Positions 11,212 to 61,014 of a stretch of DNA of 64,000 bases are shown here, in pieces. A program made the translations under genes and the position numbers. Under the pieces are notes generated by a model. It saw only the letters and a program-made list of their open reading frames with translations, ran no database searches and was not told the origin of the DNA. How positions within the stretch are numbered: position 1 is the first letter of the stretch; each line of letters begins with the position of its first letter. The stretch comes from an uncultured Planctomycetia bacterium. Its GTDB lineage: Bacteria; Omnitrophota; Gorgyraeia; Tantalellales; Tantalellaceae. The stretch covers positions 21,012 through 85,011 of the forward strand of contig CAYPCX010000006.1 of assembly GCA_964409365.1 (NCBI GenBank), in the 5' to 3' direction.

Positions 11212-13302
11212 TTAAATTCCCATTATCTCTACCAAAGCCTTGAACGCCTCTTCCACCTTTATCGACGAGACGCACTTACCCCTTCTCAAACATGTCGGCT
11301 TATAACAGGGGGAACACCTCATCTTTTTTCTCAGGATCCTGTGGTCCCCGGACGGAGGCACATGCAGACGGGGGTCCGTCGGGCCGAAAATGGCCACGAA
11401 AGGCGTGCCCACGGCGGAGGCGACATGCATGGGAGCGCTGTCACCCGTAAGCAGGGCGTCACAGCGCTTGATCAGGCTTACCATCTGTGAAATATCCGTT
11501 CTGCCCACGGCGTCGATCGGTTTCGCGTCGGTCTTTTTCAGGAATTCCTCCGCCCGGGACCGGTCCTCACCGGCACCCAGAAGGACGACTCTCACTCCCT
11601 TCTCCCTTGCCAGCGCCTCCGTAAGTTTTATCATGGACTGGACGGGCCAGTTCTTGGTCTTCCACCGCTGGCTCGCTGAGACGCTTATCGCCACGAGTTT
11701 CTGTCCCTCCTTGAGCCAGTTGCTTTTCAGGAACTTTTCGGCCCATTCCTCGCTTTCCCGGACGGGCCAGAGCTCAAGCCGATCATCCAGCTTGGTGATA
11801 CCCAGGAGCCCCAGGACACACGCCTGGTGTTTCACGGGCTCCATCGGTTTTTTCGGAAGGCTGATCTTCCTGTTCAGGAGAAAGCTCATCTTGCCGTTAT
11901 CGTAACCGTACCTTTCGGGCACTATGCTCAAAAAAGAAAGAAGATGGCTCCTGCGGTTGTTCTGCAGGTCTATGGTGATATCCATGTCCTCGGCGCGCAG
12001 TTTTCGCGCGAGCTTTAAGAACCCGACCCTTTTGTCCCTGCCGTCAAAATCACAGGTAATAAGTTCGTCCACGTACGGGCAGTTCTCGAGCACCTCCCTG
12101 AAACGGACATCCACCAGTACCGTTATGTTGGCGTTCGGGAACTTTTTCCTGACGGCACGGAGCGACGGGGTGCTAAGTATGATATCCCCGAGGGAACTGA
12201 TCTTGAAGATAAGTATGTTCTTCGTGTTGAGCGCGCGTTCGTAAGTCTGGAGGGTTATCTCCATGGTCTTGTTCAGGGAATAGTTCTTTTCGACGTTCTT
12301 TCTTGCCTTTTCGGCTATTTTCCTCATAAGGTCCGGGTCATTGGCATAACGAAGTATCTTATCGGCCATGTCCGAGGGGTTGACCGGCTCACACATGAGC
12401 CCCGTGACACCGTCGGTGATATTCTCTGCGACCCCGCCCACTTCGGTTGCCACAACGGGCACACCCCTGGCCTGGGCCTCGACGACAGATCGCCCGAAAG
12501 CTTCCTGCGCCCTGTTGGCGGAAACGAAAACATCGAGGCCCTTAAGCACCTCGGCCACGTCCTCGTCGCTGCTTTTATACTTGACGATCTTGTCGATCAT
12601 CAGCCGGCGCGTCGTCAATTCGATCTTTTTTATGTATTCTTCCTTCGCGGAAGCTTTGTCGCCCATCATTACTACCTCAAGCCTGGGTAACTTTCTCGAG
12701 ACGTACGAAGCGGCCTTCAAAAAATCCAGGTGCCCTTTAAGCGGAGTGAAACGCGATATCATCCCCACGCGAAAAACCTTGCCGTCGTCTTTAGGGAAAG
12801 GTATGAAAGAAAATTTTTTCAGGTCTATCCCTCTCGGTATGATGGCCATCTTCTTGGGGGGAGTGCCGAAATTGTCCTTCATGTACCTGGCCATCGTCTC
12901 GTTGGCCACGATCACTACCTTGCCCCAGCCCATTACCCGGCTGATAAGGTGTCTTTTGTACTGGCCATGGGCCGTGGTTATAAAAGTCCTGCCTGTTCCC
13001 CTCGCGGCGAAGTACCCCGTGACCGCGGGCACCCTGCTGCGCGCGTGGACGATATGGATATTCTCCTTTTTTATGATCTTTTTGAGCGCAAAATAACAGT
13101 AGATCATCACCAGGGGGTTTTTACGGTCCACGGGGAGCTTATAATGGCGCGCTCCTATCGCAGCGAGGTTCTTTTCGAACCTCCCTCCTCCCGAGACGAC
13201 CACGGCCTTGTGGCCGTTAAGCGTAAGATACCGCGCGACCTCCACGGTGCCTTTTTCGACGCCGCCTATGTTCAATCTTGGGACAAGCTGAAGTATGTTC
13301 AT
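11212..13302 (-). CDS. fusion protein: N-terminal GT4 glycosyltransferase plus C-terminal GT9 heptosyltransferase (696 aa)
   Basis: N-terminal half is GT4-like (MNILQLVPRLNIGGVEKGT...). C-terminal half begins ILIFKISSLGDIILSTPSLRAVRKKFP and continues through GT9 motifs. Confidence 0.7.
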   Translation of the reverse strand: MNILQLVPRLNIGGVEKGTVEVARYLTLNGHKAVVVSGGGRFEKNLAAIGARHYKLPVDRKNPLVMIYCYFALKKIIKKENIHIVHARSRVPAVTGYFAARGTGRTFITTAHGQYKRHLISRVMGWGKVVIVANETMARYMKDNFGTPPKKMAIIPRGIDLKKFSFIPFPKDDGKVFRVGMISRFTPLKGHLDFLKAASYVSRKLPRLEVVMMGDKASAKEEYIKKIELTTRRLMIDKIVKYKSSDEDVAEVLKGLDVFVSANRAQEAFGRSVVEAQARGVPVVATEVGGVAENITDGVTGLMCEPVNPSDMADKILRYANDPDLMRKIAEKARKNVEKNYSLNKTMEITLQTYERALNTKNILIFKISSLGDIILSTPSLRAVRKKFPNANITVLVDVRFREVLENCPYVDELITCDFDGRDKRVGFLKLARKLRAEDMDITIDLQNNRRSHLLSFLSIVPERYGYDNGKMSFLLNRKISLPKKPMEPVKHQACVLGLLGITKLDDRLELWPVRESEEWAEKFLKSNWLKEGQKLVAISVSASQRWKTKNWPVQSMIKLTEALAREKGVRVVLLGAGEDRSRAEEFLKKTDAKPIDAVGRTDISQMVSLIKRCDALLTGDSAPMHVASAVGTPFVAIFGPTDPRLHVPPSGDHRILRKKMRCSPCYKPTCLRRGKCVSSIKVEEAFKALVEIMGI

Positions 13303-13392
13303 AATATTCAGGTTTCAAGTTTCAGGTTTCAAGTCTCAGGGCCATGGATAAAGACATGCTTTTTCTTCCGCCTGACACCTGACACCCGACAC

Positions 13393-15339
13393 CTAAAATA
13401 ATCTGTACAATTTCTCGTATATTCTCCGGTTATCTTCAGGTACGGTAAATTCCGCTCTTCTTTCAAGGACGTCTGTCAACCGGTCCGGTATCTCTTCCGG
13501 TTTCACTACTTTAAGGTACTTTTTCCGGTCGAGATCGTCGACGAATTTTTCGTATTTGGTCGGCCCGGCGACCTTCTTGTCGGGCATGAACACCAACACG
13601 GGTTTCCCGGACGAAACCGCCTCGGAGACCATGGATATGCTCTCTCCGGAGACCATTATCACGTCGCTTGCCGCCATTATCTTTTCCACCGTGTGATCGT
13701 CCGTATCGTCCCTGCCTGAAACGTACATCGCGCACCTGGGATAGGACCCTAACATCTCCTTCACCGCTGCCTCGGCGCCCTCGGAAGTCCTCCTGGAAGT
13801 GGTCATGTAGAGATACCCGTCCCTTGCTTCGCAGGAACGCCGGACATTCTCCCCGAGGGATCTCAAAAGATCATTCCCGAACGTGTAATCAGGATTGTCC
13901 CCGCCGAGAAGAAGCCCCAGGCGGAATTTGCCCGGGAACGCCTTCCCCTCGCCTATCTTTTCCCTGAATGACGCCAACTCGCCGGAACTGATAAGGTTGG
14001 GGGCAAGGTCCGTAAAGATCAGGTTGTCCTTCGGCTTTCCTTTTACCTTATGCATGTCATGCCGCGGGATGATAACGAGATCGAACTTTTTGCGGCTCAG
14101 CGGGCCCGGGTCCATTACCGTGACGTTACGCGCGTAGTTCTCGATCTTCAGCATCCTGCTGACACCGAACAGTGAAGAGCCGCAGCTGACGATGATATCA
14201 GCGTACCGGTTGACCGCATTATCATAACTTTCCGCATCAAGCGCCCATCTCAAAAAGCCCATCCGGCCCTGGAAGTTATTGACGAAGAATGGGCTGAGCG
14301 CGTTAAAGACCGTTTTTCGAGCTTTGTTCCTGAAATTTATGCGAACGACTTCCGCTTCAATATATTCGGGCGCGTACCCTTCATCCTCCCGGAAGCGCCT
14401 CATCTGCTTCACGACGGCAAGAGATTGTTTGAGGTGCCCCTTCTTGCCGTCATCGAGCACCATGACCTTCCTGAGAGGGGTCACTTTCCATCTCTTGTGC
14501 ACCCAGAACCACTGATCGGGATGGTCGCGGACATGCTTTTCCAGCAACCTGCTGTATTCCTCCATGTAGGGGATTATGTCATCATCCTCGCCTATTTTCA
14601 TGGGCTGTTCCAGCACAAGCTCATGATACGGGCCTTTTTTCCTGTGTATGAACGCCGGCAGTACCCACGCCCCGCTCTTCTGGGCGAACCGGTACGGGCC
14701 CGTAACAGTGGATGCCGGGCGGCCGAAAAAATCTATGAGTTCGCCGCTGGAGCCGGCGTTCTGGTCCGCGAGAAGACCCAGGCTCTTGCCCTCATGCAGC
14801 ACGCGGAAGATCTTCTTTATATCAAGCCCCTTGCGTATCACGACGTTGCCTTTGGCCTCGCGCATCCCGTTAAAAAGCTCATTGACCCTTTGCATCTTCT
14901 GGTCCCTCGCGATGATATGCATCGGGAACCCTTTTATCACGCTGGCCGCTATGCTCAGTTCCCAGCTCCCGAAATGGGCGGAAACCAGTATCATCCCGTT
15001 CGGGTTCTTCGCGGCTTCCACTATTCTTTCAAAATTGATGATATCCACGTATTTTTCCACGAACCGGTCGTCCACCTTGGTAAGCAGCATTATGTCCGCG
15101 ATAGTACGGCCCAGGTGTTTGTACACCTTTTTCGTCAGGCGCTTGATCTCGGCGGGGCTCTTTTCCGAGCTGAACGCCGCTTTCAGGTTGGCATACGTTA
15201 CCCTCTGCCTTTTCCCGCTCAGGACGTACGCGAGTGACCCCAGGCCGCTCGCAAGCCACAGGCTGAACCGCATCGGCAAAAAATGCAGTATCCGGTTCAG
15301 CGCTTTAACCGCGTAAGACGCTATCAAGTCCAGAAACAA
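13393..15339 (-). CDS. fusion protein: lipid A secondary (lauroyl/myristoyl) acyltransferase LpxL/HtrB-like N-terminus plus ELM1/DUF1022-like GT-B C-terminal domain (648 aa)
   Basis: N-terminal about 300 aa matches the LPLAT LpxL family. The C-terminal domain starts VMVLDDGKKGHLKQSLAV and contains TTSRRT, which resembles the DUF1022/ELM1 family. Confidence 0.6.
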   Translation of the reverse strand: MFLDLIASYAVKALNRILHFLPMRFSLWLASGLGSLAYVLSGKRQRVTYANLKAAFSSEKSPAEIKRLTKKVYKHLGRTIADIMLLTKVDDRFVEKYVDIINFERIVEAAKNPNGMILVSAHFGSWELSIAASVIKGFPMHIIARDQKMQRVNELFNGMREAKGNVVIRKGLDIKKIFRVLHEGKSLGLLADQNAGSSGELIDFFGRPASTVTGPYRFAQKSGAWVLPAFIHRKKGPYHELVLEQPMKIGEDDDIIPYMEEYSRLLEKHVRDHPDQWFWVHKRWKVTPLRKVMVLDDGKKGHLKQSLAVVKQMRRFREDEGYAPEYIEAEVVRINFRNKARKTVFNALSPFFVNNFQGRMGFLRWALDAESYDNAVNRYADIIVSCGSSLFGVSRMLKIENYARNVTVMDPGPLSRKKFDLVIIPRHDMHKVKGKPKDNLIFTDLAPNLISSGELASFREKIGEGKAFPGKFRLGLLLGGDNPDYTFGNDLLRSLGENVRRSCEARDGYLYMTTSRRTSEGAEAAVKEMLGSYPRCAMYVSGRDDTDDHTVEKIMAASDVIMVSGESISMVSEAVSSGKPVLVFMPDKKVAGPTKYEKFVDDLDRKKYLKVVKPEEIPDRLTDVLERRAEFTVPEDNRRIYEKLYRLF

Positions 15340-20679: not shown

Positions 20680-20695
20680 ATAGTTCCGCTCCTTT

Positions 20696-21835
20696 TTAGA
20701 GTATTGAGTTTTGAGTATCACGTATCGAGTATCGGGATCCGGCCTCGGCCTTCACAAAACCCTTGATCTCCATCCTGAGAAGCTCCTCTGCCAATTCGCT
20801 CAGATCGATATTCGTAAGTTCCGAAATAAGATCTATATGTGCCGGGCCTTTCTCCAGCGCATCAAGGACCTTAAGCCCGTTTTTCCCGATCTTTCGCCGG
20901 TGTTCCCTGCGGTTTTCTTCGGTTTCACCCTTACCCCTGAGACCCGAGACCTGGAACCTGCGACCCGGATCAAGGTCCTCCAGAATATCATCGGCGCTCA
21001 TCACAAGCTTCGCGCCGTTCTGTATAAGCTCGTTAGTGCCTCCTGATGTAAGGGAATCCGCCCTTCCCGGAACGGCGAAGACCTCTCTTCCCTGGTCGAG
21101 AGCGAGATCCACGGTTATCATGGCCCCGCTTTTCCTTGTCGCTTCCACTACGACCACGCCTTTCGCCATGCCGCTTATTATCCTGTTCCTTCTCGGAAAA
21201 TTACCTCTTTCAGGAAACGTATCCGAAGTGTATTCGGTCAGTACCGCCCCGCTCTCGCATATGGCGGAAAAAAGCTTCCCGGACCCGGGAGGATAGACGT
21301 GCCCGAACCCGCTTCCCATGACCGCGACCGTACGCCCTCCGGCCCTGAGCGCGCCCCTGTGCGCGGCCGAGTCTATGCCTCTTGCCATGCCGCTTATAAC
21401 GGTAACGCCTTTCACGGCAAGAGCGAAGGCAAGCTGTTCCGCCATCTGAAGGCCGTACAACGAACAGCGTCTTGACCCTACAATGGCCACCGCGTTCGCC
21501 TCATCCCCCTGGAGCTTCCCTTTACAAAAAAGGACCGCCGGAGGATCGTATATATCCATGAGGACCTCAGGATATCCCCGTGTGCCGTAACACAGCAGGG
21601 TGATACCTTCTTTTTCGATATATTCCAGTTCCTCCGCTAATTTACGGGAATCCCTTGCCGCTTTTACCGCGGCCGTATCGGAAAAACGTCCGCCCGTCAG
21701 CTCCGCCAGGCGACGCGCCGGCATCGTGAACACCTCCTCGGTGTCATCTACGTCCCTGAGGATCTTAACTATGCTTCTGGCGCCGAGCCCCTTCGTAAGA
21801 GCGAGCGCCATTATGTCACGATCAACCTTATCCAA
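20696..21835 (-). CDS. dprA: DNA processing protein A
   Basis: DprA/Smf Rossmann-like domain (GIDSAAHRGAL...). Confidence 0.85.
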   Translation of the reverse strand: MDKVDRDIMALALTKGLGARSIVKILRDVDDTEEVFTMPARRLAELTGGRFSDTAAVKAARDSRKLAEELEYIEKEGITLLCYGTRGYPEVLMDIYDPPAVLFCKGKLQGDEANAVAIVGSRRCSLYGLQMAEQLAFALAVKGVTVISGMARGIDSAAHRGALRAGGRTVAVMGSGFGHVYPPGSGKLFSAICESGAVLTEYTSDTFPERGNFPRRNRIISGMAKGVVVVEATRKSGAMITVDLALDQGREVFAVPGRADSLTSGGTNELIQNGAKLVMSADDILEDLDPGRRFQVSGLRGKGETEENRREHRRKIGKNGLKVLDALEKGPAHIDLISELTNIDLSELAEELLRMEIKGFVKAEAGSRYSIRDTQNSIL

Positions 21836-26350: not shown

Positions 26351-26443
26351 CGTATCCCTTTAAAGAGGCCAAAGGCCTGAACGCCGGGGAATACCCTTAA
26401 AGATGTCTTATCCCAGACGCCAGGCCCCCTGGACCCTGTTACG

Positions 26444-27991
26444 TTATTTTCCGCTTTTTTTTCTTTGCTTCAGTTTTTTCTTTCTCAGCGCCAGGCGGTT
26501 TATAGCGTTCACATAGGCCAGGACGCTCGCCTCGATGATGTCCGTGCTCGAGCCCCTGCCTATCACGACCTCGTCACGGAAAGCCACCTTCACGCTGACC
26601 TCTCCCAGCGCGTCCTTCCCGCTGGTGACCGCGTTCACCTTGTAATCCATGAGCTTTCCCTTGTGCCCTACCGCCTTGTCGATCGTTTTAAAACACGCAT
26701 CTATGGGGCCGTCACCGGTAGCGGACGCTTTTACGGGTTTTTTGTCTTTCACGAGTTCTACGCTCGCCAGCGGCACTATCTTGTTGCCGCTCGTCACCTG
26801 AAAGTTGCGGAGCTTGTAATCTTCGGGAATGGTCGCCAGCTCATCTTCGACGATCGTAGCCAGGTCCTCGTCGAAGACCTTCCTTTTTTTATCGGCGAGG
26901 GCCTTGAAACGCGTGAACGCCTGGTTAAGTTCCTTCTCCGAAAGCGAATATCCCAGCTCCTTCAACCTCGCTGAAAAGGCGTGCCTGCCCGAGAGCTTGC
27001 CGAGGACTATCTTGCTCCCCTTGAAGCCCACATCCTGGGGTTTGATGATCTCGTAAGTAACTCTTTTTTTGAGCACACCGTCCTGGTGGATACCGGATTC
27101 GTGGGCGAACGCGTTATCCCCTATTATGGCCTTGTTCGGCTGCACGGTGATACCCGTCAGCTTGCTCACCAGACGGCTTGTCTTATACAGCTCCCTGGTA
27201 TTGATGTTCGTGATGAGGCCCCCATACATGTCCCTGCGCATGTTAAGTCCCATAACGATCTCTTCAAGCGAGGCGTTGCCCGCCCTCTCGCCAAGGCCGT
27301 TAATGGTACACTCCACCTGCCGCGCACCGTTCATAACAGCCGCGAGCGAGTTGCTCACGCCGAGCCCCAGGTCGTTGTGACAATGCACACTGATGATAGC
27401 CTTGTTTATATTGGGGACTGTCTCCATCAGGTAGCCTATCAGGTCGCCGAACTCCTGGGGTATGGAATACCCCACCGTGTCCGGTATGTTGACAGTCGTC
27501 GCCCCCGCCGCTATAACAGATTCCGTGACCTGCGCGAGGAAATCCCTCTCGGTCCTGGAAGCGTCCTCGGGCGAGAACTCGACGTCCGGCAGTTTCTTCC
27601 GGGCGTACTTCACCGCTTCCACGGAGGCCTTGAGTATCTCGTCCTTCGCTTTCCTCAACTTGTACTTCATGTGTATCTTGGAGGTGGCGAGAAAAACATG
27701 GATCCTCGGCCGCCTTGCTTTCTTCACCGCCTCATAAGCGTCGTCTATATCCCGTTTGGTCGCGCGCGCCAGGCCGCAGATCACGGGTTTGGTGACATGT
27801 TTGCTCACTGTCTTTACGGCTTCGAGATCACCGGGGCTTGTCCTCGGGAAACCCGCTTCGATAATATCCACACCGAGCTTTTCCAGCTGGTAAGCTATCT
27901 TGAGTTTCTCGTTGGTGGTAAGACTGGCGCCGGGGGTCTGTTCCCCGTCCCTCAGCGTCGTATCGAATATCAGGACCTTGTTTTTTTTCAT
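26444..27991 (-). CDS. leuA: 2-isopropylmalate synthase / (R)-citramalate synthase family
   Basis: LIFDTTLRDGEQTPG DRE-TIM N-terminus, HCHNDLG motif and C-terminal LeuA dimerisation domain. 515 aa. Confidence 0.8.
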   Translation of the reverse strand: MKKNKVLIFDTTLRDGEQTPGASLTTNEKLKIAYQLEKLGVDIIEAGFPRTSPGDLEAVKTVSKHVTKPVICGLARATKRDIDDAYEAVKKARRPRIHVFLATSKIHMKYKLRKAKDEILKASVEAVKYARKKLPDVEFSPEDASRTERDFLAQVTESVIAAGATTVNIPDTVGYSIPQEFGDLIGYLMETVPNINKAIISVHCHNDLGLGVSNSLAAVMNGARQVECTINGLGERAGNASLEEIVMGLNMRRDMYGGLITNINTRELYKTSRLVSKLTGITVQPNKAIIGDNAFAHESGIHQDGVLKKRVTYEIIKPQDVGFKGSKIVLGKLSGRHAFSARLKELGYSLSEKELNQAFTRFKALADKKRKVFDEDLATIVEDELATIPEDYKLRNFQVTSGNKIVPLASVELVKDKKPVKASATGDGPIDACFKTIDKAVGHKGKLMDYKVNAVTSGKDALGEVSVKVAFRDEVVIGRGSSTDIIEASVLAYVNAINRLALRKKKLKQRKKSGK

Positions 27992-28188
27992 GTCATTTCC
28001 TTTTCTCAGAAGACAGAAGTCAGATGTCAGAAATCAGATATTAGGTGTTTGGTGTTAGATATTAGTTATTAGTTTTTAGTTCTTAGTCGTACAACTCATA
28101 ACTCATAACTAACAACTCAACACTTGATACTTGTTACTTTATCCTTTATCCTTGTTACTTGTCTCTGTCCTCTGTCATCTGTCCTCTA
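27992..28188. repeat. about 28-unit degenerate heptamer tandem array filling the ilvC-leuA spacer; the two halves are roughly complementary
   Basis: cagaaga cagaagt cagatgt cagaaat cagatat taggtgt ttggtgt ... gttactt gtctctg tcctctg tcatctg. The units drift gradually; the 5' half is purine-rich and the 3' half pyrimidine-rich. Confidence 0.85.
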
Positions 28189-29175
28189 CTACATCCACGG
28201 CATCATGCCGCGAAGTTCTTCGCCGATCTTTTCTATCTCGTGCATCTTTTCGTCTTCCGTGATCTTGTTGTACTTCGGCCGCCCGCTCTGGTTCTCTTTT
28301 ATCCACTCTTCGGCGAACTCGCCCGACTGTATCTCCTTGAGTATCTTTTTCATCTCCTTGCGCGTATCGGCGTTGATGACCCGTTTACCCCTGGTGATGT
28401 CGCCGTATTCCGCCGTATCGGAGACCCTCTTCCTCATGCCGTAGATACCGTACTTGTAAATAAGGTCCGTTATCAGCTTGAGCTCGTGCAGGCATTCGAA
28501 GTAAGCTATCTCCGGCTGGTACCCCGCTTCGACAAGCGTGTCGAAACCGGCCTTTATCAGTTCCGAAGCGCCGCCGCAAAGCACCGTCTGCTCCCCGAAA
28601 AGATCGGTCTCCGTTTCTTCCTTGAACGTGGTCTCGATCACGCCGGCCCTTGTTCCGCCGATGGCCTTGGCGTACGCCAGGGCCTTGTCCCTGGCCCGGC
28701 CCGAATAATCCTGGAAAACAGCGATAAGGCACGGCACTCCCTTGCCCTGTTCGTACATCTCGCGGACCAGGGCGCCCGGGCCTTTGGGCGCGACCATGAA
28801 CACGTCCACGTTCCCCGGCGGGACTATCTGCTTGAAGTGTATATTGAACCCGTGAGAGAACGCCAGCGCGTTGCCTTCCGAAAGGTTCGCCTCTATACAG
28901 CTCGCGTATACCTTAGCCTGAACGTGATCCTGGGTCAGTATCTGGATTATATCAGCCTGCTTAGCGGCCTCTTCCGCGGCGAGGACCTCAAAACCGTCCT
29001 TTACGGCCAGCTCGTGGTTCGGCGTCCCTTCCAGCTCGCTTACCACGACGCTGATACCGCTGTCCCTCAGGTTAAGGGCCTGGCCGCGTCCCTGTATGCC
29101 GTAACCTATGATGGCGACCTTGAGGTCTTTGATCAGGTCCAGATCAGCGTCTTCGTCATAATACATCTTTGCCAT
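28189..29175 (-). CDS. ilvC: ketol-acid reductoisomerase
   Basis: 328 aa class I KARI ([19 protein letters not shown]). Confidence 0.9.
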
Positions 29176-31400: not shown

Positions 31401-31475
31401 GATCCCTCTCTTTGCCATCATATAATAGTCATTTCCTATATATTATAATCAACATGTCCGTATATGTTCAATAAG

Positions 31476-31503
31476 TATATAACACTTGTAAAGGTTTTGT
31501 CAA
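31476..31503 (-). promoter_or_regulatory. sigma70-type promoter candidate for ilvBNC-leuA: TTGACA-N16-TATATA
   Basis: Minus-strand TTGACAaaacctttacaagtgtTATATA, about 75 nt upstream of the ilvB ATG, just downstream of the four-helix-bundle gene stop. Confidence 0.4.
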
Positions 31504-31513
31504 GAAACAGGTT

Positions 31514-31915
31514 TCAAGTCACAGGTTGCAGGTTCCAGGTCGCGGATTCCAGGCTTTTTAGAACCGCTTGCCGGAAACAATGCAGTTTCTTGCCCAAGTT
31601 TTCATATCTATTAAACAACGACTCGAATAATTCCCTTTGTTTTAGCGAACTGGTATCAAATAATAACTGAAGATGTTCTTTTGTTTCATCAACAGAAGCA
31701 AGCGCATATGTAAGGTATTTTACATATTCAAGTTTATATTTTTTCCGGCCAAAACCTTCCACGATCAAAGCAGGAATAGATTTCGAAGATCTTCTAACCT
31801 GACTTCCCCCTTCATACACTTCAAATCTAGGCAATCTTTTCAACGTCATTTCGTGTATTTCAACTGCCAGCTTATGGGAAAGGTCATATATTTCCAAATT
31901 TTGATAACTTTGCAT
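31514..31915 (-). CDS. four-helix-bundle protein (23S rRNA intervening-sequence protein family)
   Basis: 133 aa with the characteristic LEIYDLSHKLAVEIHEMT ... YALASVDETKEHL pattern. AGGAG SD 14 nt upstream of the ATG. Flanked on both sides by heptamer arrays. Confidence 0.7.
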   Translation of the reverse strand: MQSYQNLEIYDLSHKLAVEIHEMTLKRLPRFEVYEGGSQVRRSSKSIPALIVEGFGRKKYKLEYVKYLTYALASVDETKEHLQLLFDTSSLKQRELFESLFNRYENLGKKLHCFRQAVLKSLESATWNLQPVT

Positions 31916-31924
31916 AATATATCA

Positions 31925-32117
31925 AAACTCCTCGCCTGACTTGCGACTTGTGACTTGCGACCTGCGACTTGCGACCTGCGACTTGTGATACACACACATA
32001 TATAGACACCTTTTTTCATTTTTTCTTGAAAATAACTTAAAACTTGGGGCTTGCAACTTGGCGCCTGAGACTTGCGACCTGCGACTTGAGACCTGAGACC
32101 TGCGACCTGCGACTTGA
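31925..32117. repeat. heptamer tandem array (gacttgc/gacctgc units) with an AT-rich centre, between alr and the four-helix-bundle gene
   Basis: gacttgc gacttgt gacttgc gacctgc ... cttgcga cctgcga cttgaga cctgaga. The track ORF 31846..32121 is a translation of these repeats. Confidence 0.8.
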
Positions 32118-37638: not shown

Positions 37639-37737
37639 ATCTTCATAACCTCGTCGTCATCCTTGCACCCTGACACCGTCTTCTGTCTTCTGTCTTCTGT
37701 CCTCTGTCTTCTGTCTTCTGTCCTCTGAAACAAGCCG
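37639..37737. repeat. heptamer array (tctgtct/tctgtcc, about 8 near-perfect units)
   Basis: tctgtct tctgtct tctgtcc tctgtct tctgtct tctgtcc tctgaaa. Confidence 0.85.
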
Positions 37738-39114
37738 TCATCCAACAGCATCGTAATACCTCAGCCTGAAACTGGCCCCCATTTCCTGCGCCATGCGCCT
37801 GCATTCGGAGACGTCCTCCTCGCCTACCATATCAAGGCACGTTACTTCGACCCCGATACCGTTAGCACGGCAGTTCTTTATAAAGTCAAGGATAGCCCCG
37901 TGAGCCGTTTCTCCGAACACGGAACGGCACAACTTGTCGTATTTCTCGGGTTCCGGCTCGTTAAGGCTTACCGATACCCGGTCTATCAGTCCTTTAAGTT
38001 CGTTCGCGATCACCCGCCCGTTGATCATATCGCCCTCGCCGTTAGTGACCATCCTGAGCCTTCCACCGGCCTTTTTGACGTAAGCGGCAACTTCCTTCAC
38101 GATGCCGAGACGCAGAGTAGGCTCACCGTAACCGCAGAACACTATCTCGTTATAGCGGGAGACATCCCCGATAGCGTCTATTATCTCTTCGGCAGAAGGG
38201 TCCTTGTCGAGCCGTAAATTATGGCCCTTGACAAAACTGGAATAATAACGCACGCAGAACGTGCACCTGTTGGTGCACCTGTTCGTCACGTTGATGTAAA
38301 GAGAATCCCTTATGGCATAGGCGATCTTACCGCCGCCCTTCAGGCCGAGCCGGAAAAGCCGGTTCGCGTTAAGTGTGGTGGCCTCCGCTATATCCTCCGG
38401 CGCGCGGCCATAGGCCGAAGCATACACCTCAAGAAGGTACTTTACGTTCCCCGGTTCGTTCCTCTTGCCTCTCAGAGGTTCGGGGGATATATACGGCGCG
38501 TCCGTCTCCAGGAGCAGCCGGTCCGGCGGTATCTCTTTTATCATCCCGCGGAGCTTATCCGCTTTCTCGAAAGTTATATTGCCCGCGAACGAGACATACA
38601 TCCCGAGATCCAGGATATCTTTAGCGAGCTTTGCGTCCCCGGAAAAACAGTGGACGACGCCGCGGGGCGCGAGATCGTCGCTTTCTTTCAGTATGTTCAC
38701 AAGGTCTTCTCCGGCATTACGGTTGTGGAGTATGACCGGGAAGTCAAGATCTCTGGCTATGGCGAGGCATCTTTTGAAAAGCTTTCTCTGATTCTCGGGA
38801 TCCGAATAACCCTTGTAATAGTCCAGGCCTATTTCGCCTATGGCTACCAGTTTATCGCTTTTAAGGGCTATGTCGCGAAGCTCGGATATCTGCGGATCCC
38901 CGGCCTTGTCGGCTTCGTGGGGATGTATACCGGCCGCGGCGAATACCGGGGCGTACTTCTCCGCCAGCTTTACCGCCGCACGCGTGCTCTCGATACTCGT
39001 ACCGGGCACGATAAATCGTACCACCCCGCTAGAGGCGGACCTTTTCAGGACCTCATCCAGATCATCCTTATAATCGGGAAAATCCAGATGGCAATGAGTG
39101 TCTACTAACTCCAT
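37738..39114 (-). CDS. fusion: TatD-family metal-dependent hydrolase (N-terminus) plus TatD-associated radical SAM domain (C-terminus), 458 aa
   Basis: N-terminus DTHCHLDF (TatD). C-terminal half has CTNRCTFCVRY (CxxxCxxC radical SAM). Confidence 0.7.
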   Translation of the reverse strand: MELVDTHCHLDFPDYKDDLDEVLKRSASSGVVRFIVPGTSIESTRAAVKLAEKYAPVFAAAGIHPHEADKAGDPQISELRDIALKSDKLVAIGEIGLDYYKGYSDPENQRKLFKRCLAIARDLDFPVILHNRNAGEDLVNILKESDDLAPRGVVHCFSGDAKLAKDILDLGMYVSFAGNITFEKADKLRGMIKEIPPDRLLLETDAPYISPEPLRGKRNEPGNVKYLLEVYASAYGRAPEDIAEATTLNANRLFRLGLKGGGKIAYAIRDSLYINVTNRCTNRCTFCVRYYSSFVKGHNLRLDKDPSAEEIIDAIGDVSRYNEIVFCGYGEPTLRLGIVKEVAAYVKKAGGRLRMVTNGEGDMINGRVIANELKGLIDRVSVSLNEPEPEKYDKLCRSVFGETAHGAILDFIKNCRANGIGVEVTCLDMVGEEDVSECRRMAQEMGASFRLRYYDAVG

Positions 39115-39130
39115 GTTAACGCCTCATAGG

Positions 39131-39172
39131 TTTCAGGTTTCAGGTCTCAGGTTTCAGGTTTCAGGTTTCAGA
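39131..39172. repeat. heptamer microsatellite (caggttt/caggtct, 6 copies) between ogt and the tatD-rSAM gene
   Basis: ggtttcaggtttcaggtctcaggtttcaggtttcaggtttcag. Confidence 0.85.
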
Positions 39173-39461
39173 TCGTGAAAACTACACCTTCATCTTTAAG
39201 TATACGCCTCTTCTTTGCCACTCCTCCCGAATAGCCCCCGATGGTACCGTTGGACGCGATAACCCTGTGGCACGGCACCTCCGGCGCGAAAGGGTTCTTC
39301 GAAAGCGTCTGCCCCACGGCCCGGCTTGCCCCGGGCGAACCCGCTTTTTCGGCCACCCAGGCATACGACCGTGTTTGTCCTTGGGGTATCGCCAGAACGG
39401 CTTTGAGGACTTTTTTCTGAAAGGAGGTAAGGCCGGTGGCGTTATCGATCTTCTTTTTCAC
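39168..39461 (-). CDS. ogt: methylated-DNA-protein-cysteine methyltransferase (MGMT C-terminal domain only)
   Basis: PCHRVI active-site motif. 97 aa. Confidence 0.75.
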   Translation of the reverse strand: MKKKIDNATGLTSFQKKVLKAVLAIPQGQTRSYAWVAEKAGSPGASRAVGQTLSKNPFAPEVPCHRVIASNGTIGGYSGGVAKKRRILKDEGVVFTI

Positions 39462-41861: not shown

Positions 41862-42012
41862 GTTAACTCCCCATCTATCTGTATCAGAAGTCAGATGTCA
41901 GAAGACAGAAATCAGATATTAGGTGTTTGCTGTTGGAGGACACTATAATCTTTTTTCTGTCCTCTGTTCTCTGTCTTCTGTTTTCTGTCCTCTGTTCTCT
42001 GAGACTTTTCGT
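41862..42012. repeat. heptamer array sharing a 5' module with the 27992-28188 array
   Basis: cagaagtcagatgtcagaagacagaaatcagatattaggtgtttgctgtt ... tctgtcctctgttctctgtcttctgttttctgtcctctgttctctgagac. Confidence 0.8.
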
Positions 42013-45060: not shown

Positions 45061-45112
45061 ATCCACTATCCAGAATCGAACTTCAAGTTTGTAACCAGTA
45101 ACCAGTGAAAAA

Positions 45113-45190: not shown

Positions 45191-45208
45191 ACCCAACACT
45201 CACCGGCG

Positions 45209-47133: not shown

Positions 47134-47212
47134 CTTTGATTGCAAAGAGCTAAGCGCATAGAGCAAAGAATTACAGTTTTACGCTGTACGCTATGCCCTT
47201 TGCGCTATGCGT
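47134..47212. repeat. 78-bp repeat, right copy (inverted relative to 45113-45190)
   Basis: ctttgattgcaaagagctaagcgcatagagcaaagaattacagttttacgctgtacgctatgccctttgcgctatgcg. Confidence 0.85.
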
Positions 47213-47259
47213 TTTCACTGGTACTTGTTACTTTTTCCTTGTTCCTTGTTACTTGTTAC

Positions 47260-48288
47260 TCACTGATGCCTTTTTTGCTCGGGCCTCTCGGGCCTTTCAA
47301 CAAGATTGGCGAATATCATCCTGCCGGCGGAGGTCTGCAGCACGCTCGTGACGGAAACGTTCACGGTCCTTCCTATACACTTTCTCGCGTTATCGACCAC
47401 TATCATGGTCCCGTCGTCCATGAAGGCCACGCCCTGGTTCCGCTCTTTTCCCTCTTTCTTGATGTAAGCCGTCATCTGTTCTCCCGGGAACACTACCGGG
47501 CGCAGCGCGTTGGCCAGGTCGTTGATGTTCAGGACCGTTACCCCTTCAAGTTTGGCCACCTTGTTGAGGTTGAAATCGTTCGTCAGGACCCGGCAATCGA
47601 GTATCCTTGCCAGGCGTATGAGCTTCGCGTCGACCTCCTTGACGTCCGGGAGGTTCTCCTCATGTATTATCACTTCCGTCTGGGGCATGCCTTTCAGGCG
47701 GTTCAGCATGTCCAGCCCCCTGCGTCCCCTGTTACGCTTGGTGTCATCGGAACTGTCCGCTATCTGGTGCAGCTCCTGCAGGACGAACCTCGGGATGACG
47801 AGCCTGCCCTCGAGGAAACCCGTCTCGCAGATACCGGCGATCCTGCCGTCGATTATCACGCTGGTATCCAGAAGAAGCAGCTGGTCCTTCTGGTCCTCGC
47901 GAGAAAACCGCACGTACGGTATCACCAGGTTGAACTCGTCCTTGCCTTTTAGCGCGATGACCATGCCCAGATAGCAGAAGACAAGCGTGAACGCTATCTG
48001 CAGCACGGAATAGATCACCTCATCCATGGGTATCAGGCGGACTATCAGGGTGACCATCCACGCCATGAAAAAACCGAAAACCAGGCCGAAAGCCGCCGCC
48101 GACAAGTTACGCAGCGACACGTGCTTCAACTTGACCTCCAAAAGTATCAGGAGCAACGCGCAGACGAACCCGGCACCGGCGCCGATCATGGCGCCCTCCC
48201 TTGAAAGATCTGTCAAGAGAGACCCGACGTAATACCCGCATACTACGCTCAGGATCAGAAAAAATGCCCTTATGAACCTTTCAGTCAT
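47260..48288 (-). CDS. yacL: PIN/TRAM domain membrane protein (YacL-like)
   Basis: N-terminal TM helices, central PIN (LLLDTSVIIDGR) and C-terminal TRAM domain. Confidence 0.75.
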   Translation of the reverse strand: MTERFIRAFFLILSVVCGYYVGSLLTDLSREGAMIGAGAGFVCALLLILLEVKLKHVSLRNLSAAAFGLVFGFFMAWMVTLIVRLIPMDEVIYSVLQIAFTLVFCYLGMVIALKGKDEFNLVIPYVRFSREDQKDQLLLLDTSVIIDGRIAGICETGFLEGRLVIPRFVLQELHQIADSSDDTKRNRGRRGLDMLNRLKGMPQTEVIIHEENLPDVKEVDAKLIRLARILDCRVLTNDFNLNKVAKLEGVTVLNINDLANALRPVVFPGEQMTAYIKKEGKERNQGVAFMDDGTMIVVDNARKCIGRTVNVSVTSVLQTSAGRMIFANLVERPERPEQKRHQ

Positions 48289-56325: not shown

Positions 56326-56420
56326 ATTGTCCTCGTAAAACGCTTGTTTCAGAAAACAGGAATCAGACGTCAGATTTCATACAATTCTGTCCTCTGTCTT
56401 CTGCCATCTGTCCTCTGTCT

Positions 56421-57293
56421 TTAATACTCTACGCCTTCCGTTTCCGTGACCTTCCTGAAATCCGCCAGGAGCTGTTTATATATCGGGCCCGGCTTGCCGG
56501 TGCCTATGGGCTTGTCGTCCATCTTGATCACGGGTATTATCTCGGCGGCGGTGCCGGTCAGGAAGCATTCGTCCGCTTCGAAGAGTTCTTCGGGATACAT
56601 CTTTTTGTATTCCGTCTCTATCCCCCTTTTCCGCGCCAGGCCTATGACGAGGTCCTGCGTCACCCCTTCAAGAGCGCCGATCTCCGACGGCGGGGTATAG
56701 AGCCTGTTATCTTTGACCAGAAAGATATTGTCGCCGGTACATTCGGCGATGTACCCGTCAAGGTCCAGCATCACGGCCTCCGGCGTCCCCGCGTCTATCG
56801 CGTCTATCCTCCCGAGGATGTTATTCAGGTAATTCAGCGATTTTATCCTCGGATCGACCGTTATGGGGTGATTGCGCCTGGTCTTCGCTATAGTGATCGG
56901 CAGGCCGCTCTTATAGAGCTCCGGGGGATACAGATCTATCTTGTCCGTGATTATGAAGACCGTGGGCTTTTCGCACTTGCGGGGGTCAAGCCCCAGATCT
57001 CCGATGCCTCTGGTGACGACGACGCGTATGTACGCGTTGTCCAACTCGTTCATTTTCAGCGTCTCGACTATTTTTTCCTCGAAATCCCACTTCGTGATGG
57101 GGATCTCCAATCTTATGGCGTCGGCGCTTTCGTACAAACGGTTGATATGCTCCTCCAGCCGGAAGACCTTCCTGTTGTACGACCGTATGCCTTCGAAGAC
57201 ACCGTCCCCGTAAAGAAGGCCGTGGTCGAACACGGAGACCTTCGCGTCTTTTTTTTCCACGAACTCGCCGTCAATATATATCTTAAGCTCCAT
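56421..57293 (-). CDS. ilvE: branched-chain amino acid aminotransferase (class IV)
   Basis: 290 aa class IV PLP aminotransferase. Confidence 0.8.
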   Translation of the reverse strand: MELKIYIDGEFVEKKDAKVSVFDHGLLYGDGVFEGIRSYNRKVFRLEEHINRLYESADAIRLEIPITKWDFEEKIVETLKMNELDNAYIRVVVTRGIGDLGLDPRKCEKPTVFIITDKIDLYPPELYKSGLPITIAKTRRNHPITVDPRIKSLNYLNNILGRIDAIDAGTPEAVMLDLDGYIAECTGDNIFLVKDNRLYTPPSEIGALEGVTQDLVIGLARKRGIETEYKKMYPEELFEADECFLTGTAAEIIPVIKMDDKPIGTGKPGPIYKQLLADFRKVTETEGVEY

Positions 57294-59248: not shown

Positions 59249-59343
59249 GTTTTTTCAGGTTTAACACTTCTTTTCAGAAGACAGAGGTCAGATGCCAGAA
59301 TTCTGTTTTCTGCTTTCTGTCTTCTGTTTTTCAAAACCACATA

Positions 59344-61005: not shown

Positions 61006-61014
61006 GTGTAAGGG

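What the first reader, a model, noticed from the sequence alone, without database searches (positions are those of the whole stretch)
27992..28188. A 197-bp spacer between ilvC and leuA built from ~28 consecutive degenerate heptamers forming a long imperfect palindrome
The units read cagaaga cagaagt cagatgt cagaaat cagatat taggtgt ttggtgt tagatat tagttat tagtttt tagttct tagtcgt acaactc ataactc ataacta acaactc aacactt gatactt gttactt tatcctt tatcctt gttactt gtctctg tcctctg tcatctg tcctcta. Each unit differs from its neighbour by 1-2 substitutions, like a decayed minisatellite. The outer units (cagaNNN versus tctgNNc) are complementary. There is no coding potential and no promoter consensus.
Basis: seen in the sequence. 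Interest (0 to 1): 0.55.

Follow-up and report, generated by a model that had tools for sequence, protein, structure and literature searches.

The report
Heptamer-repeat hairpin in ilv-leu operon
The gap between two amino-acid-synthesis genes of an uncultured Omnitrophota bacterium holds a real 26-unit seven-base repeat that folds back on itself; the genome carries many such elements, and this one's outer stem matches the stems of the 'intervening sequences' found in the ribosomal RNA of other bacteria, which RNase III cuts out in the case tested.

Summary
Positions 28007-28188 parse into 26 in-phase heptamers. Lag-7 self-identity is 0.69, against at most 0.41 in shuffles. Neighbouring units differ by 1.9 bases, against 5.05 after shuffling. 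The palindrome is only partial: an outer and an inner complementary arm pair (75-86%) flank an asymmetric unpaired middle.

The element is not a one-off. The 64-kb window, from an Omnitrophota-like MAG with all genes on the - strand, holds about 15 period-7 arrays. They lie in or at the edges of intergenic gaps, none with a strong promoter.

The spacer is a mosaic of segments homologous to other arrays. The closest relative has only a 20-nt ilvC-leuA gap, so the element fills the space between the stop codon and the RBS.

Unexpectedly, a PF05635 ('23S rRNA IVS protein') gene 3.3 kb away is bracketed by complementary heptamer arrays. So are 13 of 18 PF05635 genes sampled from Omnitrophota, cyanobacteria, Bacteroidota and Azospirillum. 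The spacer's outer arm is 20/21 identical to the stem of the Azospirillum 23S rRNA IVS and shares the GACAGAT unit of the Coxiella IVS, which RNase III cuts there.

Best reading: an ORF-less, IVS-like heptamer hairpin that grew by slippage and copying, is co-transcribed, and is probably processed by RNase III.

The parts
26444..27991 (-). leuA (2-isopropylmalate synthase), the gene downstream of the spacer
   Evidence: NCBIfam NF002086 / TIGR00973, E 1e-242. Called as a gene on the source contig.
27992..28006 (-). leuA translation-initiation region (sense: GAGAAAAGGAAAUGAC-AUG). It is not part of the array and is left unpaired in the MFE fold.
   Evidence: Sequence. Fold. Aligns with the AAAAGGAG RBS region of the closest relative L002.
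28007..28038 (.). Outer left arm: CAGAAGA-type heptamers (sense strand: 3' arm UCUGNNN). Homologous to 41884-41934 and 59274-59300.
   Evidence: I3, I5, I7.
28039..28052 (.). Two units (TAGGTGT TTGGTGT) with no partner in the right arm. They are shared with the array at 41.9 kb.
28053..28090 (.). Inner left arm: TAGTTAT-type heptamers
   Evidence: I1, I2, I4: 78-86% complementary to 28091-28124.
28091..28124 (.). Inner right arm: ATAACTC-type heptamers. The apex of the hairpin lies at 28090/28091.
   Evidence: The unit-to-unit distance jumps to 6 at the apex. A Logan contig from another run starts exactly at the apex.
28125..28163 (.). Unpaired direct array: TACTTGT/TATCCTT units (sense CAAGTAA-type). 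Homologous to 47222-47256 (91%) and to 574-613 (opposite strand).
28164..28188 (.). Outer right arm: TCTGTCC-type heptamers (sense 5' arm AGAGGACAGAUGACAGAGGAC). It abuts the ilvC stop codon. It is 20/21 identical to the stem of the Azospirillum lipoferum 23S rRNA IVS and contains the Coxiella IVS unit GACAGAT.
   Evidence: PMC4990558.
28189..29175 (-). ilvC (ketol-acid reductoisomerase), the gene upstream of the spacer
   Evidence: NCBIfam NF004017, E 2e-161.
31474..31503 (-). Sigma-70-like promoter of the ilvB-ilvN-ilvC-leuA unit (TTGACA-18-TATACT, 11/12). It is conserved in L002. This implies the spacer is transcribed inside the operon.
31501..32117 (-). IVS-like cassette. A PF05635 four-helix-bundle gene (31514-31915) is enclosed by complementary heptamer arrays: 3' arm 31501-31553, 5' arm 31937-31985 and an extra 5' array 32064-32117. 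It is absent from L002.
   Evidence: Pfam. TIGR02436. Inverted repeats 76-86% complementary. The MFE fold pairs the arms around the ORF, z -4.9. L002.
41878..42008 (.). Sister hairpin of the same CAGAAGA/TCTGTCC family, between holB and the PSP1 gene. It shares a 51-nt run of variant units with the focal left arm (90%, E 3e-12).
59274..59332 (.). Short hairpin of the same family (4 + 4 units), upstream of the LolC-like permease gene
56380..56429 (.). Array of the same family (TCTGTCC arm; complementary TCAGA units lie just upstream at 56345-56375)
37659..37738 (.). Direct-only array GTCTTCT x7 (sense GACAGAA), same family, no hairpin partner
47170..47276 (.). Array containing the TACTTGT/TTCCTTG run that is homologous to focal 28128-28162
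13297..13400 (.). Hairpin of the CAGGTTT/CAAGTTT family. It shares sequence with the arms of the PF05635 cassette.
39115..39186 (.). Direct array AGGTTTC x6, 88% identical over 33 nt to the 3' arm of the PF05635 cassette

Best explanation
The ilvC-leuA spacer is an ORF-less member of a dispersed family of heptanucleotide-array hairpin elements. That family has colonised intergenic gaps without strong promoters in this Omnitrophota-like genome.

Shown:
- It is a genuine 26-unit period-7 array.
- It fills the space between the ilvC stop codon and the leuA ribosome-binding site, where the closest relative has only 20 nt.
- It is a mosaic of segments homologous to other arrays in the same genome.
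- Its outer arms are near-identical to the terminal stem of a real 23S rRNA intervening sequence (IVS) that carries a PF05635 gene.

Inferred origin:
- The arrays grow and decay by 7-nt slippage within each arm. This gives the neighbour-similarity gradient and phased mismatches between the arms.
- They spread between loci by copying or ectopic recombination.
- They are the same kind of sequence that forms the inverted arms of PF05635 ('IVS protein') cassettes. The focal element is therefore an 'empty' IVS-like stem.

Inferred working:
- The element is transcribed from the ilvB promoter as part of the ilvBNC-leuA mRNA.
- There it folds into a long imperfect stem-loop that leaves the leuA RBS free.
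- Like IVS stems and the Haemophilus hmw1A heptamer hairpin, it is probably cut by RNase III, or acts as a decay barrier. Either would uncouple the stability of the ilvBNC and leuA segments.

The element is most likely selfish or near-neutral rather than a required regulator.
For: Periodicity and gradient.

Insertion between stop codon and RBS: the closest relative L002 (85% ilvC identity) has a 20-nt junction and no heptamer array in 9 kb. ilvC-leuA gaps in relatives range from 7 to 241 nt.

Family in the genome: 16 period-7 segments (about 15 arrays) totalling 1372 nt in 64 kb. That compares with 47 nt for period 8, 64 nt for period 10 and none for periods 4-6, 9 and 11. The density is about 7 times that of 1.08 Mb of related loci.

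Mosaic homology: focal 15-65 matches 41884-41934 (90%, E 3e-12). Focal 137-171 matches 47222-47256 (91%).

Operon context: every gene in the window is on the - strand. Strong sense-strand promoters (at least 10/12) occur only in three long gaps (92-165 nt) that carry no array, and no array-bearing gap has one. No terminator-like site was found.

Slippage within arms: in the inner stem the unit position 1 is T in 5 of 5 left units but G in 4 of 5 mirrored right units. In the L003 family, paralogous copies keep one loop but carry 4-10 units per arm.

IVS link:
- The PF05635 gene at 31514-31915 is enclosed by complementary heptamer arrays.
- Those arrays share sequence with ORF-less arrays at 39134-39166 and 13308-13340.
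- 13 of 18 PF05635 genes sampled have significantly complementary flanks, and tandem arrays of 7- or 8-nt units lie beside nearly all of them. The sample covers Omnitrophota, Nostocales, Chroococcales, Pleurocapsales, Riemerella and Azospirillum.
- At least 12 of 120 homologues carry 7-aa-periodic N-terminal extensions, which are translated upstream arrays.
- The repeat unit tracks protein relatedness.
- The focal 5' arm AGAGGACAGATGACAGAGGAC matches the Azospirillum arm AGAGGACGGATGACAGAGGAC at 20 of 21 positions (E 3e-4). That locus lies inside a 23S rRNA gene.
- The Coxiella IVS carries GACAGAT x3, with the RNase III cut at the first repeat (PMC4990558).

Precedent for mechanism: the H. influenzae (ATCTTTC)n repeat is transcribed, forms a long hairpin, and is processed by RNase III (PMC12721329).
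Against: No transcript or cleavage data exist for this organism, so RNase III processing is inference only.

The G-U strand test shows no sign of selection on the sense RNA: 60 of 572 pairs are G-U on the sense strand and 63 of 559 on the antisense strand. In L003 the hairpins fold much better on the antisense strand.

Stems are only 75-86% complementary and can pair in several registers offset by 7. Continuous helices reach at most 11 bp.

The focal element has no ORF. The arms of the window's own PF05635 cassette are a different unit family (CAAGTCG/CAGGTCG), so the link to IVS cassettes rests on similarity to elements in other phyla. A 20/21 match between repetitive sequences is weaker evidence than the same match between unique sequences.

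Some arrays in the window are direct-only and form no hairpin (573-621, 37639-37737, 39115-39167). The hairpin is therefore not a universal property of the family.

The element is absent from the closest relative, so any function is dispensable.
Confidence: 0.55

Rival explanations
1. A purely local minisatellite. A heptamer expanded in place by replication slippage and then decayed. The palindrome arose by a local inverted duplication. There is no relation to other loci or to any cassette, and no function.
For: The neighbour-distance gradient is typical of in-situ tandem duplication. According to the papers read, heptanucleotide repeats are reported as the commonest long simple-sequence-repeat (SSR) class in prokaryotes and are attributed to polymerase slippage. 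Period 7 is the top period not divisible by three in unrelated loci.
Against: Runs of 35-51 nt with the same order of variant units recur at other loci: 41884-41934 at E 3e-12, and 47222-47256. Unit families are shared among at least 5 loci in the window. The arms match IVS stems from another phylum. Slippage alone does not explain the complementary paired arms with roughly matched unit numbers.
Confidence: 0.15
2. An array of binding sites for a protein with a 7-nt footprint. One candidate is a cold-shock-type single-strand binder. Another is the PF05635 pentamer itself. Binding would control translation, mRNA melting or propagation of the element.
For: CspB binds heptamer repeats, one protein per 7 nt, with a preference for T-rich units (PMC4679880). 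The pyrimidine arms here are GTCTTCT/TCTGTCC. PF05635 genes and heptamer arrays co-occur and co-vary. AG (left arm) and CT (right arm) are invariant in nearly every unit. In L003 all five copies share one orientation relative to the genes.
Against: No unit sequence is conserved across genomes. The CAG/CTG core is present in 6 of 59 external arrays against 12 expected. Direct arrays occur in both orientations relative to transcription. No binding data exist.
Confidence: 0.15
3. A conventional miniature transposable element (MITE, REP/BIME or Correia-like), mobilised in trans by a transposase (RAYT, IS200/IS605 or other).
For: Dispersed homologous copies exist. The element is hairpin-forming and intergenic. 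The L003 family has a conserved core with copies in five consecutive gaps, all in one orientation. Correia elements are co-transcribed and are bound or cut by RNase III (PMC2649163).
Against: The element has no defined terminal inverted repeats distinct from the arrays. No target-site duplication is seen when the junction is compared with L002. Lengths and unit counts are variable rather than discrete. No transposase or Y1-transposase gene lies in the 64-kb window. Copies in the window share no loop.
Confidence: 0.1
4. A dedicated regulatory RNA for leuA: leader-peptide attenuator, T-box, riboswitch, or an intrinsic terminator or attenuator between ilvC and leuA.
For: Several relatives carry a G+C-rich hairpin followed by a U-tract in the same gap (L010, L015, L024). 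Some control at this junction may therefore be common.
Against: No Rfam family matches (best E 0.62, an unrelated lncRNA model). No U-tract or terminator-like site was found. There is no leucine-rich leader ORF. The element is absent from the closest relative. Arrays of the same kind sit in many unrelated operons.
Confidence: 0.04
5. An assembly artefact of a repetitive region.
For: Short-read Logan contigs break inside the arrays.
Against: The 3' half of the spacer and all covered flanks are 100% identical in contigs from other sequencing runs. The array is degenerate enough to be unique. The same contig structure was found in seven 50-200 kb contigs.
Confidence: 0.01

Closest known systems
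23S rRNA intervening sequences (IVS) carrying a PF05635/S23p ORF (Coxiella burnetii helix-45 IVS; Azospirillum lipoferum AZO_p2 23S rRNA)
   Same: The terminal arms are built of GACAGAT/GAGGACA-type heptamers and form a stem. The focal 5' arm is 20/21 identical to the Azospirillum IVS arm and contains the Coxiella unit GACAGAT. In Coxiella the stem is cut by RNase III at the first repeat, and the repeat number varies between strains (PMC4990558). A full cassette (arms plus PF05635 ORF) lies 3.3 kb away in the same window.
   Different: The focal element is not in an rRNA gene, has no ORF in its loop, and is longer and more degenerate. It also contains an extra inner hairpin and an unpaired array. 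RNase III cleavage is untested.
Haemophilus influenzae hmw1A 5'-UTR (ATCTTTC)n repeat hairpin
   Same: A heptanucleotide repeat is transcribed within an mRNA and folds into a long hairpin. RNase III processes that hairpin, with effects on expression of the downstream gene. Hairpin, transcription and RNase III are also needed for changes in repeat number (PMC12721329).
   Different: There one arm is a perfect repeat and the other is a G-rich non-repeat region. It lies in a 5' UTR downstream of a promoter and is phase-variable. Here both arms are degenerate arrays, the position is intercistronic, and no length variation has been observed.
Heptanucleotide tandem repeats of cyanobacteria, Xanthomonas and Beggiatoaceae (STRR; GGGAATC/GGGGATT repeats; TAACTGA repeats; long simple-sequence repeats of 5-11 nt)
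   Same: 7-nt units, intergenic, many loci per genome, often just upstream of start codons. Some occur as inverted pairs able to form stem-loops (PMC4692102; PMC4679880). The inner units here (TAACTAA/TAACTCA) are one base away from TAACTGA.
   Different: Different phylum (Omnitrophota-like). The arrays are far more degenerate, are mostly organised as paired complementary arms, and form several unit families in one genome. The papers read for these repeats describe no link to PF05635 genes.
Co-transcribed hairpin repeats such as Neisseria Correia elements and enterobacterial REP/BIME
   Same: Dispersed intergenic palindromic elements inside operons. Correia elements can be bound or cleaved by RNase III and alter the expression of neighbouring genes (PMC2649163).
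   Different: Those elements have fixed lengths, defined terminal inverted repeats and target duplications (REP: a cognate RAYT transposase), and no period-7 substructure. None of these defining features was found here.

Membership tests
Heptanucleotide tandem-repeat arrays (STRR / long SSR class) | Head-to-tail repeats of a 7-nt unit, longer than chance allows | tested here: met
   26 in-phase units. Lag-7 identity 0.689 against at most 0.411 in 2000 shuffles. Six TRF sub-arrays.
Heptanucleotide tandem-repeat arrays (STRR / long SSR class) | Intergenic, many loci per genome | tested here: met
   About 15 arrays in 64 kb, in or at the edges of intergenic gaps. Period 7 accounts for 1372 nt, against 0-64 nt for every other period from 4 to 11.
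Heptanucleotide tandem-repeat arrays (STRR / long SSR class) | STRR in the strict sense: the CCCCAGT / TTGGTCA / CAACAGT units of heterocystous cyanobacteria (units recalled from memory, not checked in a paper here) | tested here: not met
   The units are CAGAAGA, TAGTTAT and TACTTGT types. The organism is Omnitrophota-like by ilvC relatives.
23S rRNA IVS / PF05635 cassette | Complementary terminal arms that form a stem | tested here: met
   Outer arms 28007-28038 and 28164-28187 are 75-83% complementary. They are 20/21 identical to the Azospirillum IVS arm.
23S rRNA IVS / PF05635 cassette | PF05635 ORF in the loop | tested here: not met
   The interior is about 125 nt of heptamer arrays with stops in all frames. 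The neighbouring element 31501-32117 does meet this feature.
23S rRNA IVS / PF05635 cassette | Inserted in helix 25 or 45 of a 23S rRNA gene | tested here: not met
   It lies between ilvC and leuA, with no rRNA match.
23S rRNA IVS / PF05635 cassette | Excised or cleaved by RNase III | not testable with these tools
   Needs RNA end-mapping or an in-vitro cleavage assay.
MITE / Correia-type element | Defined terminal inverted repeats plus a target-site duplication; discrete length | tested here: not met
   Comparison with the empty junction in L002 shows no duplication. Copies differ in length and unit number.
REP/BIME | 20-40-nt imperfect palindrome with a conserved 5' tetranucleotide and a cognate RAYT gene | tested here: inconclusive
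   No such motif was seen, and no Y1 transposase gene was found among the window genes annotated. The rest of the genome was not available.
Intrinsic terminator / attenuator | G+C-rich stem followed by a U-tract; or a leader peptide rich in the regulatory amino acid | tested here: not met
   No terminator-like site on the sense strand. The spacer is 34% G+C. The only mini-ORFs are MTEDRDK* and MSYELYD*.
Curated RNA families (Rfam 15: T-box, riboswitches, leaders) | Covariance-model match at or near the gathering score | tested here: not met
   The only hit is NPPA-AS1_3 at 17.5 bits against a gathering score of 55, E 0.62.

The most novel reading that the evidence does not exclude
Short tandem heptamer arrays are the cis-acting arms of one cross-phylum class of selfish 'hairpin cassettes'. 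The autonomous members of this class carry a PF05635 four-helix-bundle (Avd-like) gene. 23S rRNA intervening sequences would be the special case of insertion into rRNA. The enigmatic intergenic heptamer repeats of cyanobacteria, Beggiatoaceae, Bacteroidota and Omnitrophota, including this ilvC-leuA spacer, would be ORF-less derivatives. These would be propagated or maintained through the PF05635 protein and/or RNase III-dependent transcription-coupled slippage.
Probability: 0.25. Interest if true: 0.85.

Novelty: new variant of a known kind. Interest (0 to 1): 0.6.

Why it matters
Intergenic heptanucleotide repeats have been reported in several bacterial groups, and the papers read here give them no agreed origin or function. 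They include STRR in cyanobacteria, TAACTGA in giant sulfur bacteria and GGGAATC in Xanthomonas. PF05635 'IVS proteins' likewise have no known role outside Avd of diversity-generating retroelements.

This window ties the two together. An ORF-less heptamer hairpin inside a housekeeping operon has the same arms as genuine rRNA IVS stems. PF05635 genes from five bacterial phyla are bracketed by complementary arrays of 7- or 8-nt units, and those arrays co-vary with the protein.

If the link holds, it gives a testable origin for both the repeats and the IVSs. It would also explain why PF05635 genes turn up inside cas, pilus and biosynthetic operons. It further predicts RNase III-dependent segmentation of polycistronic mRNAs in Omnitrophota.

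On the practical side, the arrays break short-read assemblies. They are also mis-translated into spurious N-terminal extensions and small ORFs in databases.

Tried and rejected
(1) A conserved CAG/CTG core across genomes. It is present in 12 of 21 window arrays but in only 6 of 59 arrays from other genomes, against 12.2 expected. Rejected.

(2) G-U strand-asymmetry test for selection on the sense RNA. No asymmetry in the window (60 against 63 G-U pairs). In L003 the antisense strand folds better. No support for an RNA-level constraint on the sense strand.

(3) Unit-number variation between strains. Every contig from other runs is 100% identical and ends inside the arrays, so this is not testable.

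(4) Exact 20-mer search (CAGAAATCAGATATTAGGTG) in JGI metagenomes found no hits. The ilvC-based metagenome scan found nothing closer than 74% identity.

(5) Promoter, terminator, leader peptide and Rfam family in the spacer: none found.

(6) My crude ORF map suggested + strand genes at 45995-47131 and elsewhere. The contig's gene calls show these are shadow ORFs and that every gene is on the - strand.

(7) MITE-like target duplication at the L002 junction: none.

(8) A shared loop among window copies, as seen in L003: none.

(9) Reading Ralph and McClelland 1993 for IVS repeat structure: the paper is not held.

(10) Two gene look-ups failed because my start codons differed from the called genes.
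Full report
**1. The observation**

The window's - strand carries ilvB-ilvN-ilvC-[spacer]-leuA-aroE. NCBIfam equivalog models name ilvC (28189-29175) and leuA (26444-27991). The same genes are called on the source contig, ENA ERZ27256770 k141_1412183, 128 kb.

The 197-nt spacer (27992-28188) is 34% G+C in a 53% G+C window. The first 15 nt are the leuA RBS region.

The period-7 signal is strong:
- Lag-7 self-identity is 0.689, lag-14 is 0.546 and lag-21 is 0.517. The best lag in 2000 shuffles never exceeds 0.411.
- TRF finds six overlapping period-7 sub-arrays.
- Adjacent units differ by 1.88 positions, against 5.05 +/- 0.23 after shuffling.
- That distance grows steadily with separation, with a single jump to 6 at the apex, 28090/28091.

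**2. The palindrome**

There are two nested imperfect stems:
- Outer arms 28007-28038 / 28164-28187, 75-83% complementary.
- Inner arms 28053-28090 / 28091-28124, 78-86% complementary.

Several registers offset by 7 nt are almost equally good. Between the stems the left side has 14 nt and the right side 39 nt that do not pair.

The sense RNA folds at -50 kcal/mol (z -3.66; 0 of 200 shuffles as good). The antisense RNA folds at -47 kcal/mol (z -3.38). Permuting the 26 units gives a mean of -38 kcal/mol, and only about 2% of permutations fold as well. 'Long imperfect palindrome' is therefore partly right.

No sense-strand promoter, terminator, leader ORF or Rfam family is present.

**3. A genome-wide feature, not a local oddity**

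A lag-7 scan finds 16 segments (about 15 arrays) in the window, and TRF agrees. Period 7 covers 1372 nt. Period 8 covers 47 nt, period 10 covers 64 nt, and periods 4-6, 9 and 11 cover none.

The contig's gene calls and the Pfam scan show only co-directional housekeeping genes: LPS core, queuosine, topA, ilv/leu/aro, tRNA synthetases, holB, ligA and others. All lie on the - strand. The arrays sit in or at the edges of the gaps between these genes.

Strong sense-strand sigma-70-like promoters (at least 10/12) occur only in three long gaps (92-165 nt), at about 60881, 31503 and 6008, and none of those gaps carries an array. No array-bearing gap has such a promoter. The ilvB promoter is conserved in the closest relative. 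The spacer is therefore almost certainly transcribed inside the ilvBNC-leuA mRNA. This last step is inference.

**4. Relatives**

By ilvC, the organism groups with Candidatus Omnitrophota MAGs. ilvC-leuA adjacency is conserved, but the gap varies from 7 to 241 nt.

The closest genome, L002 (85% ilvC identity), has a 20-nt junction: TAA TAG TTAAAAGGAGCGGTAAC ATG. It has no heptamer array in 9 kb. Aligned to it, the focal element occupies the space between the stop codon and the RBS, with no target duplication.

Other Omnitrophota carry unrelated heptamer hairpins in the same gap:
- L003: ATATCGC / GCGACAT units.
- L017 and L022: other units.
- L014: an array just downstream of ilvC, although leuA does not follow there.

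Others still carry ordinary G+C-rich terminator-like hairpins. In L003 five consecutive gaps carry heptamer hairpins. Four of them share one family, with a conserved loop (TGGGATTTTTAAAAG) and 4-10 units per arm, and the fifth has different units.

Contigs from other sequencing runs are 100% identical to the window and break inside the arrays. That excludes an artefact, but it also prevents any test of unit-number polymorphism.

**5. How the array evolved**

The distance gradient points to 7-nt slippage within each arm. So do the phased differences between arms. For example, unit position 1 of the inner stem is T in all five left units but G in four of the five mirrored right units.

Slippage cannot be the whole story, because the spacer is a mosaic:
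- Focal 15-65 matches 41884-41934 with the same order of variant units (90%, E 3e-12).
- Focal 137-171 matches 47222-47256 (91%).
- The right outer arm matches arrays at 37.7, 41.9 and 56.4 kb.

Copying or ectopic recombination between loci must therefore have occurred.

The G-U test gives no evidence that the sense RNA is the selected form: 60 of 572 pairs against 63 of 559. In L003 the antisense strand folds far better.

A cross-genome CAG core was tested and rejected.

**6. The unexpected link**

The gene 3.3 kb upstream (31514-31915, -) is a PF05635 / TIGR02436 'four helix bundle' protein, historically called '23S rRNA IVS protein'. It is absent from L002.

Complementary heptamer arrays enclose it:
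- 5' arm 31937-31985, plus a further array at 32064-32117.
- 3' arm 31501-31553, overlapping its C-terminus.
- Complementarity of 76-86%.

The MFE of the 501-nt sense RNA pairs these arms around the whole ORF (z -4.9). These arms share sequence with ORF-less arrays at 39134-39166 (88% over 33 nt) and 13308-13340.

The pattern is general:
- Three of four Omnitrophota homologues examined have CAGGnnn/CAAGnnn arrays upstream and their complements downstream. In the fourth, an IS lies between the gene and the nearest upstream arrays.
- At least 12 of 120 homologous proteins in the database carry 7-residue-periodic N-terminal extensions such as GYRLQAAGYRLQAA, which are translated upstream arrays.
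- All 13 PF05635 genes examined on plasmids have tandem arrays of 7- or 8-nt units beside them. The hosts were Calothrix, Nostoc, Geminocystis, Stanieria, Anabaena, Trichormus, Picosynechococcus, Oscillatoria, Riemerella and Azospirillum.
- In a shuffle-controlled test, 13 of 18 genes have significantly complementary flanks.
- The repeat unit tracks protein relatedness, so arms and ORF are inherited together.
- The genes sit co-oriented inside operons: cas6-X-cas4, cas10-X-cmr3, pilB-X-pilC, alr-X-ilvB. An earlier survey read such cases as a functional association with cas genes (PMC3936711).

I found no paper describing this general arrangement. The library is incomplete, so it may have been noted elsewhere.

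**7. Back to the spacer**

Its sense 5' arm, AGAGGACAGATGACAGAGGAC, is 20/21 identical to the upstream arm of the Azospirillum lipoferum element. The 3' arms share UCUGUCUUCUG and GUCUUCUGAG. Rfam shows that the Azospirillum locus lies inside a 23S rRNA gene, so it is a genuine IVS.

The Coxiella burnetii helix-45 IVS has AGAAGA followed by GACAGAT x3 and GACAGAA upstream of its S23p ORF. Its repeat number varies between strains, and the RNase III cut falls at the first repeat (PMC4990558). Trichormus variabilis uses TCAGAAT/TCAGAAG arms. An ORF-less hairpin of the same family lies between bAvd and the template region of a diversity-generating retroelement in L176.

The focal element is thus best described as an ORF-less, IVS-like heptamer hairpin.

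**8. Mechanism and confidence**

Shown:
- It is a real period-7 array.
- It is an insertion or expansion between stop codon and RBS.
- It has dispersed homologous copies.
- It lies within an operon and lacks a promoter of its own.
- Its arms are similar to IVS arms.

Inferred:
- It grew by slippage and spread by copying.
- It is co-transcribed and folds into a stem-loop that leaves the RBS free.
- RNase III cleaves it, or it acts as a decay barrier. This is by analogy with IVS stems and with the H. influenzae hmw1A (ATCTTTC)n hairpin. In that case RNase III processing, transcription and the hairpin are all required for expression and for repeat-number change (PMC12721329).

The element is dispensable, since the closest relative lacks it, and is probably selfish or near-neutral.

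The rival explanations are given with their own probabilities. They are a purely local minisatellite, a protein-binding array, a classical MITE/REP element, a leuA attenuator and an assembly artefact.

**9. Verdict**

By kind, this is a new variant of known things: heptanucleotide repeat arrays and IVS stems. It occurs in a phylum and a context (mRNA spacers) where I found no prior description.

The wider association of PF05635 genes with paired heptamer arrays is the part that most deserves follow-up.

Noticed in passing
window 31501-32117 (-): A PF05635/TIGR02436 four-helix-bundle gene (31514-31915) is enclosed by complementary heptamer arrays. The predicted RNA pairs the arrays around the whole ORF, which is the architecture of a 23S rRNA intervening sequence, but here it sits between alr and the ilvB promoter. 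The closest relative L002 lacks it.
   Followed up: yes
L174, L175, L179, L180-L192 (PF05635 genes of Omnitrophota, cyanobacterial, Riemerella and Azospirillum replicons): PF05635 genes from five phyla have a tandem array of 7- or 8-nt units upstream and, in most cases, its reverse complement downstream. 13 of 18 are significant in a shuffle test. The unit co-varies with the protein. The genes sit co-oriented inside operons (cas6-X-cas4, cas10-X-cmr3, pilB-X-pilC). No paper describing this general pattern was found.
   Followed up: partly
proteins P0002, P0010, P0013, P0025, P0031, P0056, P0061, P0080, P0116 and others: Database PF05635 proteins carry spurious N-terminal extensions with a 7-residue period (for example MLQVAGYRLQATGCRLQATGCRLQVAG...). 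These are translations of upstream heptamer arrays. Most homologues are also known only from very short contigs, which fits assemblies breaking at the arrays.
   Followed up: partly
window 35383-35521: A perfect (100%) 49-bp tandem repeat, 2.8 copies. In sense orientation each copy starts with TTGACA. It overlaps the called start of the AIRS-domain gene. It may be a recent duplication or a collapsed or expanded assembly.
   Followed up: no
window 45109-45198 and 47126-47215: A 90-nt inverted repeat, 90% complementary, lies in the two gaps that bracket the ispD-ispF-cysE block (1.9 kb between the arms). The arms contain short period-7 runs. It could pair over a long range in the mRNA or allow inversion.
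   Followed up: partly
window 60850-61014 (-): A perfect sigma-70 consensus promoter (TTGACA-17-TATAAT, 60853-60881) lies upstream of lysS. It is preceded by a period-10 repeat (60918-60967, about 5 copies) and a 13-bp palindrome (CATCGGGTGTGTACACACCCGATG).
   Followed up: no
window 20692-20746 and 37632-37751: Heptamer arrays run into coding calls. The last ~12 codons of dprA (20696-21835) are encoded by a GATACTC array. A 39-aa 'gene' is called entirely inside the GACAGAA array at 37.7 kb.
   Followed up: partly
L003 1498-1601, 3278-3394, 3884-3989, 4992-5170, 8437-8556: In this Omnitrophota MAG every gap of the ilv-leu operon carries a heptamer hairpin, and four of the five share one family (same loop, 4-10 units per arm). 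All five are in one orientation. Four of the five fold far better on the strand antisense to the genes (for example -67.7 against -48.1 kcal/mol), with A-C mismatches phased every 7 nt on the sense strand.
   Followed up: partly
L176 2440-2745: An ORF-less CAGAAGA/GACAGAG-type heptamer hairpin, the same family as the focal outer arms, lies between the bAvd gene and the template region/reverse transcriptase of a diversity-generating retroelement.
   Followed up: no
window 28055-28119: The inner hairpin units (TAACTAA, TAACTCA; sense TTAGTTA/TGAGTTA) differ by one base from the TAACTGA repeat of marine Beggiatoaceae, cyanobacteria and Bacteroidetes (PMC4679880).
   Followed up: no
window 26351-26443 (-): The next gap of the operon (leuA-aroE, 93 nt against 28 nt in L002) holds a G+C-rich imperfect hairpin (-34 kcal/mol) with no period-7 structure and no U-tract.
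   Followed up: no
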